NCBI RefSeq assembly: GCF_006345805.1
Contig: NC_043000.1
Span: forward strand, 82,212,001-82,276,000
DNA: 64,000 nucleotides
Source of the DNA: Octopus sinensis
Lineage: Eukaryota
Reading direction: 5' to 3'
Position 1 is the stretch's first letter; every line of letters begins with the position of its first letter. The position numbers were made by a program. Below are positions 33,787 through 34,538 of the stretch, piece after piece.

Positions 33787-34493
33787 CATACATAAAAGTA
33801 AATAAATGGCACAACGAAGTACCGATATTTACTGGAAATAGCGACGTAATAAATACGACGCTAATGTATAGCTTCACTGCGTATGTACTAGCAAAAATGC
33901 GTGTGTGCAACATACGCAGTGAAGCTATACATTAGCGTCGTATTTATTACGTTCGCTATTTTCCAGTAAATATCGGTACTTCGTTGTGCCATTTATTTAC
34001 TTTTATGTATAATTTTACCCTCATGGGCTATCCTTTACTGGAAAGCAATACTTTCGTATTGCATTACTATTTTCATAGAAACTTCTTCACTGTTCTCGTT
34101 CTGTCAACGTTTTGGCGTCCAGTCGAGTGTATTGGCATGGATGTGGCAACATTTGAAATATTGTCGAGGTATATGTGGCTGATGAAGATAAATCAAATAT
34201 ATGTGGGCAGACATATTTTGAAGAATCTGAAACCGGTACCACATTATCCCTTTCTAGGTATTTCATTTTTCAGATGTTCTTCCTAGAGGTAAGACAATTT
34301 TTTTCATATTTGTTGCACACACGCATTTTTGCTAGTACATACGCAATGAAGCTATACATTAGCGTCGTATTTATTACGTTCGCTATTTTCCAGTAAATAT
34401 CGGTACTTCGTTGTGCCATTTATTTACTTTTATGTATAATTTTACCCTCACGGGCTATCCTTTAATGGAAAGCAATACTCTCGTATTGCATTA

Positions 34494-34538
<45 letters not shown>

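What the first reader, a model, noticed from the sequence alone, without database searches (positions are those of the whole stretch)
33788..34499. ORF-less 427-nt hammerhead element present as a 1.4-mer with 5' inversion: candidate retrozyme / circRNA-derived insertion
Seen: a canonical type I HHR (34173-34244) inside a 427-bp unit whose first 163 bp are repeated at the end. An inverted ~125-bp copy precedes it, joined by a 3-nt ACA microhomology (33910-33912), and the whole lies in (TA)n. The repeats differ at only a few positions, so the insertion looks young. Known: Penelope-like elements carry minimal type I HHRs in pseudo-LTRs and form partial tandems and inversions; metazoan non-LTR retrozymes are short HHR units that yield circular RNAs. 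Inference: this is a reverse-transcribed copy of a 427-nt circular or multimeric RNA, mobilised in trans by a Penelope RT.
Basis: partly seen in the sequence, partly recalled or inferred. Interest (0 to 1): 0.9.

Follow-up and report, generated by a model that had tools for sequence, protein, structure and literature searches.

The report
ORF-less hammerhead retroelement insertion in (TA)n
A short non-coding mobile element with a self-cleaving-ribozyme motif sits in a TA microsatellite, arranged like the insertions that Penelope-type retrotransposons make; it is a good example of an already described kind of element, not a new kind.

Summary
Bases 33910-34072 recur at 34337-34499 (163 nt, 4 mismatches, period 427). 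Bases 33788-33912 are the reverse complement of 34311-34437. The two orientations overlap by ACA, and (TA)n lies on both sides.

A hammerhead motif of type I topology lies at 34173-34244. It was the only hit of my descriptor in the 64 kb; 2 of 300 shuffled windows gave any hit. "Canonical" is too strong:
- No Rfam hammerhead model matched, even at E<=10 on 121 nt.
- The 10.1-11.1 pair is A-U rather than G-C.
- Helix II carries a long extension.
- The locus holds only one ribozyme copy.

The 427-nt unit has no ORF with a Pfam match, is 36% GC and is strongly self-paired (z = -6.7).

Two direct repeats, one inverted 5' copy, a one-sided extension and an AT-rich target are the published signature of Penelope-like integration. 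ORF-less hammerhead units (non-LTR retrozymes) are already proposed to be Penelope dependants.

The best reading is a dead-end, 1.4-unit copy of such an element. Whether the template was a circle or a linear multimer cannot be told, and no Penelope gene lies in the window. New member of a known kind; interest is modest.

The parts
33738..33787 (.). Left (TA)n block ending in ...ATATAC. It is the target microsatellite and a possible left copy of a long target-site duplication.
   Evidence: TRF; sequence. Its last two bases, AC, are neither element sequence nor pure (TA)n, and they recur at the end of the right block.
33788..33912 (-). Inverted partial copy, the reverse complement of unit positions 402-427 followed by 1-101. 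It forms a roughly 100-nt hairpin arm with 33910-34010.
   Evidence: the repeat finder I1-I3 and I11; BLAST; three-way alignment.
33910..33912 (.). ACA shared by the inverted and the direct part; the microhomology at the inversion junction.
   Evidence: The arm and repeat coordinates overlap by 3 nt.
33910..34072 (+). Direct repeat copy A (unit positions 1-163), equivalent to an upstream pseudo-LTR.
34073..34336 (+). Single-copy inner part of the unit (positions 164-427). It holds the hammerhead motif.
34173..34244 (+). Hammerhead motif of type I topology. CUGAUGA is at 34179-85. Helix II spans 34186-34228 (4 bp, an internal loop, then a long stem). GAAA is at 34229-32. Helix III is 1 bp with a CCGG loop (34232-37). 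The predicted cleavage is after A34238, and helix I is 6 bp.
   Evidence: Sequence; fold; descriptor scan and shuffles. No Rfam hammerhead match.
34337..34499 (+). Direct repeat copy B (unit positions 1-163), equivalent to a downstream pseudo-LTR. The insertion's 3' end is at 34499.
34438..34499 (+). A 62-nt stretch (unit positions 102-163; also 34011-34072) present at the right end but absent from the outer end of the inverted copy. It is analogous to the one-sided 'tail' of Penelope-like insertions.
   Evidence: The inverted copy stops at unit position 101 while the direct copy stops at 163. Tail described in PMC8557442, PMC3846280 and PMC11167929.
34472..34489 (+). Perfect 7-bp hairpin (also 34045-34062) 10 nt upstream of the insertion's 3' end. 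The two copies differ only in the loop.
   Evidence: -8.3 kcal/mol for both copies.
34500..34537 (.). Right (TA)n block ending in ...ATATAC, followed by unique sequence. It is a possible right copy of the target-site duplication.
   Evidence: TRF; sequence.

Best explanation
This is one retrotransposition product of a short, non-coding, hammerhead-bearing element with a 427-nt unit. That makes it a metazoan 'non-LTR retrozyme' or, equivalently, a non-autonomous Penelope-like element. It inserted into a (TA)n microsatellite.

Inferred mechanism:
1. A Penelope-type RT/endonuclease supplied in trans cut both strands of the AT-rich target some tens of bases apart.
2. The bottom-strand 3' end primed cDNA synthesis inside the RNA, at unit position 163 just past a 7-bp hairpin. 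It ran 590 nt, which is 1.38 units, so the template was longer than one unit or circular.
3. The top-strand 3' end primed at unit position 101 and ran 125 nt, across the same unit junction.
4. The two cDNA ends met at an ACA/TGT microhomology, and each was completed on the other.
5. The result is the inverted 5' copy, two direct repeats, a 62-nt one-sided extension and duplicated (TA)n...AC flanks.

The copy carries a single ribozyme. It can therefore neither release a unit-length RNA nor form the two-ribozyme dimer that a 1-bp helix III with a palindromic loop implies. It is a dead-end copy.

Shown: the repeat anatomy, the motif, the absence of an ORF and the self-pairing. Inferred: every enzymatic step, the identity of the RT, and any RNA circle.
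For: Anatomy.

Template periodicity: the direct and the inverted part both read across the unit junction.

The RNA-sense strand carries the ribozyme in its active polarity.

Motif:
- It was the only strict descriptor hit in 64 kb on both strands.
- 2 of 300 shuffled windows had any strict hit.
- Helix I of 6 bp, helix II of 4 bp before an internal loop, and helix III of 1 bp with a 4-nt palindromic loop match the architecture given for metazoan type I hammerheads (PMC4209133 passages).
- The active-fold constraint costs 2.6 kcal/mol over the MFE.

Unit:
- 36% GC and 64% of bases paired.
- Circular MFE is -121.5 against -84.6 +/- 5.5 kcal/mol for shuffles; 0 of 100 shuffles fold as well.
- 1 of 24 background windows was as extreme, and that one holds a (TA)n tract.
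- No Pfam family matched either long stop-free frame.

Literature read:
- Partial tandems, an adjacent inverted 5'-truncated copy, a tail and microsatellite bias including (TA)n (PMC8557442 passages).
- Two direct plus one inverted pLTR with a tail, and pLTR-bounded non-coding captures mobilised in trans (PMC3846280 passages).
- A purified Penelope-like protein cuts and extends both strands, prefers AT-rich DNA and starts reverse transcription at two internal RNA sites whose spacing is the tail (PMC11167929 main text).
- Retrozymes of 150-450 bp, low GC, self-paired circles, with Penelope-like elements as candidate mobilisers (PMC7229834).
- Retrozymes related to pLTRs (bioRxiv 10.64898/2026.07.22.740005, abstract and sections 5 and 14).
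Against: - No Rfam hammerhead model matches at any threshold tried.
- The 10.1-11.1 pair is A-U instead of the highly conserved G-C, and helix II has 35 nt between its basal strands.
- The MFE fold pairs C3-G5 with loop 3.
- My descriptor was written after I had seen the motif.
- There is only one copy of the unit in the window and no second ribozyme. [quoted passage not shown]
- The window holds no Penelope RT or GIY-YIG gene. The one clear RT is LINE-like.
- A SINE-like copy, whose mobiliser is unidentified but is presumably LINE-type since that is the only RT type seen in the window, sits in the same (TA)n tract. The target therefore does not single out a Penelope enzyme.
- The one-sided extension is 62 nt, against 30-40 in the literature.
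- The minus strand of the unit folds almost as well (z = -5.8), so the self-pairing is not strand-specific.
- The target-site duplication rests on two shared bases (AC) beyond the microsatellite.
Confidence: 0.55

Rival explanations
1. Same element and same insertion, but the template was a linear multimeric transcript of a tandem array and no circular RNA was involved. This is the model published for autonomous Penelope-like elements.
For: - The PAc model has 'an mRNA consisting of multiple copies' as template. Ribozyme-dead mutants insert equally well in vitro, and no RNA-seq reads end at the cleavage site (PMC11167929 main text).
- Copies A and B differ at 4 of 163 positions, as expected if neighbouring units of an array were copied.
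- The insertion ends (unit positions 101 and 163) are unrelated to the cleavage site at position 329.
Against: - Metazoan retrozyme RNAs accumulate mainly as circles in coral, mussel and axolotl (PMC7229834).
- The unit is strongly self-paired, like those circles.
- The 4 differences could equally have arisen after insertion.
Confidence: 0.3
2. A LINE-type enzyme rather than a Penelope-type enzyme mobilised the RNA, and the 5' inversion arose by ordinary twin priming.
For: - The only RT genes seen in the window are LINE-like.
- A SINE-like copy lies in the same (TA)n tract.
- PMC7229834 leaves 'LINEs or PLEs' open.
- That twin priming gives 5' inversions in LINE-1 is recalled, not checked here.
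Against: - There is no poly(A) at the 3' end, and no similarity to the LINE or SINE copies of the window.
- Type I hammerheads, partial tandems and a one-sided tail are associated with Penelope-like elements in everything I read.
Confidence: 0.12
3. It is not a mobile element. A local duplication-inversion by replication template switching arose at a fragile AT-rich tract, and the hammerhead-like motif is there by chance.
For: - The unit occurs once in the window.
- A 3-nt microhomology at the junction also fits template switching.
- No Rfam hammerhead match.
- 2 of 300 shuffled windows do give a strict motif by chance.
Against: - The motif has the full core and all three helices in the expected sizes, and it lies exactly inside the rearranged unit.
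- The unit is far more self-paired than background.
- Both (TA)n blocks end in the same AC.
- The anatomy matches a described insertion type point by point.
Confidence: 0.08
4. The inverted segment 33788-33912 is an assembly or read artefact (a fold-back chimera), and only the 1.4-unit direct copy is real.
For: - Such structures 'often lead to problems in WGS assemblies' (PMC8557442).
- The inverted copy differs from both direct copies only by two homopolymer-length changes, a typical long-read error type (recalled).
Against: - The inverted piece is not a mirror of its neighbour. It continues 26 nt into the end of the unit (402-427) before the switch, which a simple fold-back read would not give.
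- Its outer end abuts a (TA)n block that ends like the right one.
Confidence: 0.07

Closest known systems
Metazoan non-LTR retrozymes (e.g. the 350-390-bp repeats of the mussel Mytilus galloprovincialis; PMC7229834)
   Same: - An ORF-less unit of a few hundred nt with low GC.
- A type I hammerhead with a weak helix III.
- A strongly self-paired predicted RNA.
- A more-than-unit-length copy.
- Larger flanking duplications 'when present'.
   Different: - Here there are 1.4 units with a single ribozyme rather than a tandem array with one per unit.
- The unit of 427 nt is slightly above the ~170-400 nt given for invertebrate circles, though within the 150-450 bp given for repeats.
- The 10.1-11.1 pair is A-U, and helix II is long.
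- No RNA data are available.
[quoted passage not shown] Pen2a_Av of Adineta vaga, and pLTR-bounded non-coding captures; PMC3846280)
   Same: - Two direct repeats.
- An adjacent inverted, shorter repeat overlapping the direct one by a few bases.
- A one-sided extension.
- Flanking duplication.
- Mobilisation of non-coding inserts in trans is described.
   Different: - No RT/GIY-YIG ORF lies between the repeats.
- The repeats (163 nt) do not contain the ribozyme.
- The extension is 62 nt rather than 31.
- The possible duplication is 38-50 nt of microsatellite rather than 8-10 bp.
Poseidon element PAc of Anolis carolinensis, reconstituted in vitro (PMC11167929)
   Same: - AT-rich target.
- Priming from both DNA strands.
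- Internal start of reverse transcription at two sites downstream of the hammerhead, near a stem-loop.
- The ATG lies inside or next to the ribozyme core.
   Different: - PAc is autonomous.
- Its start sites lie about 85-92 nt past the cleavage site (111-118 minus 26, from the paper's numbers), against 199 and 261 nt here.
- Nothing was tested for this element.
Non-autonomous Chlamys elements such as MRC1 of Chlamydomonas (PMC8557442)
   Same: ORF-less Penelope-dependent elements that form pLTRs and head-to-tail multicopy insertions.
   Different: They belong to the green-alga lineage and have no canonical hammerhead.

Membership tests
Hammerhead ribozyme, type I | Conserved core: C3 U4 G5 A6 N7 G8 A9, G12 A13 A14, A15.1-U16.1, H17 | tested here: met
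   CUGAUGA at 34179-85, GAA at 34229-31, A34232/U34237, A34238.
Hammerhead ribozyme, type I | G10.1-C11.1 pair at the base of helix II | tested here: not met
   A34186-U34228. The pair is kept but is A-U. PMC4209133 calls G-C highly conserved.
Hammerhead ribozyme, type I | Three helices with helix I open and helices II and III closed by loops | tested here: met
   Helix I has 6 bp, helix II has 4 bp plus an extension, helix III has 1 bp plus a CCGG loop.
Hammerhead ribozyme, type I | Match to a curated covariance model (the Rfam hammerhead families) | tested here: not met
   No hammerhead family at gathering score, at E<=10 on 901 nt and on 121 nt, or at E<=0.05 on the window.
Hammerhead ribozyme, type I | Self-cleavage at the predicted site | not testable with these tools
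   Needs in vitro transcription of a monomer and a dimer.
Metazoan non-LTR retrozyme | Tandem units of about 150-450 bp, each with a type I hammerhead (at least two consecutive) | tested here: not met
   The period of 427 is in range, but there are only 1.38 units and one motif. Criterion from the preprint, section 5.
Metazoan non-LTR retrozyme | No protein-coding capacity and low GC | tested here: met
   Longest stop-free frames are 116 and 79 codons with 0 Pfam families. GC is 36%.
Metazoan non-LTR retrozyme | RNA accumulates as a highly self-paired circle | tested here: inconclusive
   The predicted circular fold has z = -6.7 and 64% of bases paired, but the minus strand folds nearly as well. 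There are no RNA data.
Metazoan non-LTR retrozyme | Dispersed multicopy family in the genome | not testable with these tools
   Only one copy lies in the window. No metazoan genome collection was open.
Penelope-like element (autonomous) | ORF with a telomerase-like RT and a GIY-YIG endonuclease | tested here: not met
   None in the element. The six-frame regex scan of the whole window found no GIY-YIG-like motif, and the only RT active-site-like match with a Pfam RT domain (YADD) lies in the LINE-like ORF. Of the 62 stop-free frames of at least 120 aa, 19 were scanned with Pfam, plus one 79-codon frame of the element, and none was Penelope-like.
Penelope-type insertion (product of the enzyme) | Partial tandem giving pseudo-LTRs | tested here: met
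   33910-34072 and 34337-34499.
Penelope-type insertion (product of the enzyme) | Inverted 5'-truncated copy directly upstream | tested here: met
   33788-33912.
Penelope-type insertion (product of the enzyme) | Optional 30-40-bp tail at one end | tested here: inconclusive
   The one-sided extension is 62 nt, longer than described.
Penelope-type insertion (product of the enzyme) | AT-rich or microsatellite target | tested here: met
   (TA)n on both sides. This is not specific, since a SINE-like copy shares the tract.

The most novel reading that the evidence does not exclude
This single locus may preserve a complete record of a Penelope-type integration of a hammerhead RNA. Both insertion ends would mark two internal reverse-transcription start sites (unit positions 101 and 163), primed from the two target strands. 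The cDNAs would have joined by a 3-nt microhomology, with the whole (TA)n tract duplicated. If copies genome-wide share these two end points, that would be insertion-level evidence, beyond co-occurrence and pLTR similarity, that retrozymes use the Penelope machinery. It would also show that the two-site, two-strand initiation seen in vitro for a lizard element operates in vivo in an invertebrate-like genome. A second, smaller point is that the ribozyme would be a variant (A10.1-U11.1, extended helix II) that the current covariance models miss.
Probability: 0.35. Interest if true: 0.5.

Novelty: new member of a known kind. Interest (0 to 1): 0.3.

Why it matters
It has been proposed since 2020, and argued from phylogeny in 2026, that Penelope-like elements mobilise animal retrozymes. 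The evidence I read is co-occurrence, shared ribozyme type and pLTR similarity.

A clean insertion like this one offers a different kind of evidence if it recurs genome-wide. It is ORF-less and hammerhead-bearing, and it shows both-strand priming, a one-sided extension and a microsatellite duplication. Its junctions would record the enzyme's mechanism.

It also shows that Rfam hammerhead models can miss such motifs, which bears on genome surveys. As a single locus without RNA or copy data it adds an example, not a principle.

Tried and rejected
- Rfam. I ran four scans: gathering score on the window, E<=10 on 901 nt, E<=10 on 121 nt, and E<=0.05 on the window. None returned a hammerhead. The sub-threshold miRNA-type hits at 33844-33952 are generic matches to the long hairpin made by the inverted and direct copies; all are far below gathering score, so I rejected them as genes.
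- Other copies of the unit in the window. BLASTN with word size 7 gave nothing longer than 31 nt outside the element.
- Penelope genes in the window. A regex for GIY...YIG in six frames gave 0 hits. Three xxDD matches appeared, and the only one with a Pfam RT domain lies in a LINE-like ORF.
- Pfam. Of the 62 stop-free frames of at least 120 aa, I scanned 19, plus one 79-codon frame of the element, making 20 frames. The hits were RVT_1, zf-RVT and one weak sub-threshold Vir1p match. The other 43 frames were not scanned.
- Homodimer cofold of the ribozyme segment. The MFE dimer pairs the helix II loops and does not form the extended helix III, so it is uninformative about the dimer model.
- Three-way comparison to tell circle from multimer. 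There is only one informative substitution in the part present three times, where the inverted copy agrees with copy A. That is too little to decide.
- Literature on cephalopods. One search was badly posed: it asked for at least 2 of 4 terms, and the 15 papers listed had 0 occurrences of 'retrozyme'. One search found 5 papers holding both 'hammerhead ribozyme' and 'octopus' and listed 4; by title none concerns such an element. The organism is not established. My impression that the SINE-like family looks cephalopod is recalled and untested.
- Not done. The phage, plasmid and E. coli collections were not used either. Structure prediction, complex prediction and the protein atlas do not apply to a non-coding element.
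- Closed and not used: the search for homologous proteins, the search of protein representatives, the metagenome and viral contig collections, and supplementary files. The supplements of PMC4209133, PMC7229834 and PMC8557442 (ribozyme family figures, retrozyme lists, consensus files) may hold a related motif or family that I could not see.
- Genome-wide copy number, permuted start points and any autonomous partner stayed unchecked.
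Full report
**1. What is in the sequence**

The region 33788-34499 is built from one 427-nt unit.
- The repeat finder reports a direct pair, 33910-34077 and 34337-34504, with a spacing of 427 and 96% identity.
- BLASTN of the unit against the window gives 163 nt at 97.5%.
- A three-way alignment shows that identity stops at 34072/34499.
- Upstream, 33788-33912 is the reverse complement of 34311-34437.
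- That inverted piece runs from unit position 101 back through position 1 and on into positions 427-402. It therefore reads across the same unit-end/unit-start junction as the direct part at 34336/34337.
- The inverted and direct parts share ACA at 33910-33912.
- Copies A and B differ at 4 of 163 positions.
- The inverted copy differs from both direct copies by two 1-nt T-run changes. At the one substitution site present in all three copies, it agrees with copy A.
- The unit has no other copy in the 64 kb.

**2. The flanks**

TRF finds (TA)n at 33738-33794 and 34495-34536, and a third block at 33350-33403.
- The left block ends ...ATATAC at 33787. The right block ends ...ATATAC at 34537 and is followed by unique sequence.
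- The terminal AC is neither element sequence nor microsatellite. The simplest reading is that the whole (TA)n...AC tract was duplicated on insertion: 50 nt on the left and 38 nt on the right, with lengths free to drift. This rests on two bases and is only suggestive.
- Between the first and second (TA)n blocks lies a 5'-truncated copy of a SINE-like family with several other copies in the window.
- The microsatellite therefore received at least two insertions, so the target alone does not identify the enzyme.

**3. The hammerhead**

Read directly:
- Helix I is AUGUGG/CCACAU (6 bp).
- CUGAUGA follows.
- Helix II opens with AGAU/AUCU (4 bp), then an internal loop and a long inner stem.
- GAAA follows.
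- Helix III is a single A-U pair closed by the palindromic loop CCGG.
- A17 is at 34238.

Helices II and III are closed and helix I is open, so the topology is type I. These sizes are the ones given for metazoan type I hammerheads: helix I 6 bp, helix II 4 bp, helix III 1-2 bp with a small palindromic loop, thought to act as dimers (PMC4209133, passages).

A descriptor scan required CUGANGA, helix II of at least 4 bp, GAA, A15.1-U16.1, a non-G at position 17 and helix I of at least 5 bp.
- It found this site as the only hit on both strands.
- Among 300 dinucleotide-preserving shuffles of the window, 2 had any strict hit, 4 hits in all. With relaxed limits, 21 of 300 had a hit, 26 hits in all.
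- I wrote the descriptor after seeing the motif, so the figure is a guide rather than a test.
- Forcing the active fold costs 2.6 kcal/mol over the MFE (-19.6 against -22.2).

Against 'canonical':
- No Rfam hammerhead family matched in four scans, down to E<=10 on 121 nt.
- The 10.1-11.1 pair is A-U, where G-C is described as highly conserved.
- 35 nt lie between the basal strands of helix II.
- The repeated 163 nt do not include the motif, so the locus has one ribozyme. It cannot yield a unit-length RNA by double cleavage or form a dimeric ribozyme in cis.

**4. The unit as an RNA**

- The unit is 36% GC.
- Folded as a circle, its MFE is -121.5 kcal/mol with 64% of bases paired.
- 100 dinucleotide shuffles gave -84.6 +/- 5.5 kcal/mol (z = -6.7), and none folded as well.
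- Of 25 random 427-nt draws from the window, one fell in the element's region and was skipped. Of the 24 folded, the mean z was -0.66. Only one (33282, which holds a (TA)n tract) was as extreme, at z = -7.7.
- The minus strand folds almost as well (z = -5.8), so the self-complementarity is not polarity-specific.
- The longest stop-free frames (116 and 79 codons) have no Pfam family.
- An ATG inside CUGAUGA opens a 34-codon frame, by my own reading of the 116-codon frame printed. In the Anolis element the ORF also starts at the ribozyme. I could not test whether this frame is a vestige of a Penelope ORF.

**5. What it most likely is**

Every structural feature has a described counterpart in Penelope-like insertions.
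- Partial tandems form pseudo-LTRs, and an inverted 5'-truncated copy lies directly upstream. A short extension sits at one end only, and insertion is biased to microsatellites, including (TA)n (PMC8557442, passages).
- The rotifer element Pen2a_Av is described as two direct pLTRs plus an adjacent, shorter inverted pLTR that overlaps the direct one by a few bases. It has a 31-bp tail and a flanking duplication. The same paper reports non-coding sequences captured between pLTRs and mobilised in trans (PMC3846280, passages).
- The purified Anolis protein cuts and extends both DNA strands and prefers AT-rich DNA. It starts reverse transcription at two adjacent internal RNA sites near a stem-loop downstream of the hammerhead. 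The distance between the two sites is the tail, and ribozyme-dead templates insert equally well (PMC11167929, main text).

Mapped onto this locus:
- The right end (unit position 163, 10 nt past a perfect 7-bp hairpin) and the outer end of the inverted copy (unit position 101) would be the two start sites.
- They were used by the bottom and top strands respectively and lie 62 nt apart.
- The 590-nt and 125-nt cDNAs met at ACA/TGT.

This is inference from one locus. The extension is also longer than the 30-40 bp described.

**6. What it is called**

ORF-less units of 150-450 bp with type I hammerheads, low GC and self-paired circular RNAs are the metazoan non-LTR retrozymes. Penelope-like elements are named as the likely mobilisers (PMC7229834, passages and sections 14 and 17; PMC7761336, passages). 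A 2026 preprint argues that they derive from pLTRs (abstract and sections 5 and 14; passages).

[quoted passage not shown] It corresponds to the 'monomer derivatives' the preprint describes as offspring that cannot transpose.

**7. What cannot be decided here**

- Circle versus linear multimer. Both give a more-than-unit-length cDNA. The insertion ends are unrelated to the cleavage site, and the 4 differences between copies A and B fit either heterogeneous template units or later mutation.
- The enzyme. No Penelope RT or GIY-YIG gene lies in the window. The RT at 59574-61445 (minus strand) is LINE-like (Pfam RVT_1; best solved structures are LINE-1 ORF2p).
- Copy number, permuted starts and a partner element. 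No metazoan collection was open.
- The reality of the palindrome in the organism. It needs spanning reads, although the 26-nt run into the unit's end argues against a simple fold-back artefact.

**8. Verdict**

This is a new member of a known kind: a truncated, single-ribozyme copy of a hammerhead-bearing non-autonomous element with a well-preserved Penelope-type insertion architecture. Interest is 0.3. It would rise to about 0.5 if genome-wide copies showed the same two end points.

Noticed in passing
window 33404-33737; other copies at 47151-47521 (-), 6338-6701 (-) and 50279-50419 (+); fragments at 22960-23096, 33233-33321 and 56611-56652: An interspersed SINE-like family (77-90% identity between copies). 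The copy next to the hammerhead element is cut short where it meets (TA)n, while the other copies run on into a tRNA-like part. It shares one (TA)n tract with the hammerhead element. My impression that it looks like a cephalopod SINE is recalled and untested.
   Followed up: partly
window 59574-61445 (-): A 623-codon stop-free frame with a reverse-transcriptase domain (Pfam RVT_1, E = 1.3e-9). The best solved-structure matches are LINE-1 ORF2 proteins (E about 1e-12). The upstream end of the frame overlaps a (TACA)n array at 61094-61444. It is a LINE remnant, not a Penelope-like element.
   Followed up: partly
window 18700-20088 (-): A 462-codon stop-free frame with a zf-RVT domain (E = 3.6e-6, just above the Pfam cut-off). 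It is probably the C-terminal part of another non-LTR retrotransposon.
   Followed up: no
window 45376-46403: An AG-rich tandem array (periods 4, 12 and 142). It explains the cluster of long overlapping stop-free frames on both strands there. None of the four frames scanned has a Pfam family.
   Followed up: partly
window 28345-28664: Long imperfect inverted repeats (arms up to 92 nt, about 92% complementary). They give the best sub-threshold Rfam hit of the window (MIR810, 86.9 bits against a gathering score of 170). The many 2-nt-shifted alignments suggest complementary dinucleotide arrays rather than an RNA gene.
   Followed up: partly
window 33844-33952: The inverted copy and direct copy A form an almost perfect hairpin: arms of about 100 nt in all, 43 nt of them perfect, around a 23-nt spacer. 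It draws sub-threshold miRNA-model hits (up to 47 bits, E = 5e-9 on 901 nt). If transcribed it could be a source of double-stranded RNA and small RNAs. It is not a curated family match.
   Followed up: partly
window 34182-34286: An ATG inside the CUGAUGA core opens a 34-codon frame that runs through the ribozyme. In the Anolis Penelope-like element the ORF also starts at the ribozyme. This may be a vestige of a Penelope ORF start, or chance.
   Followed up: no
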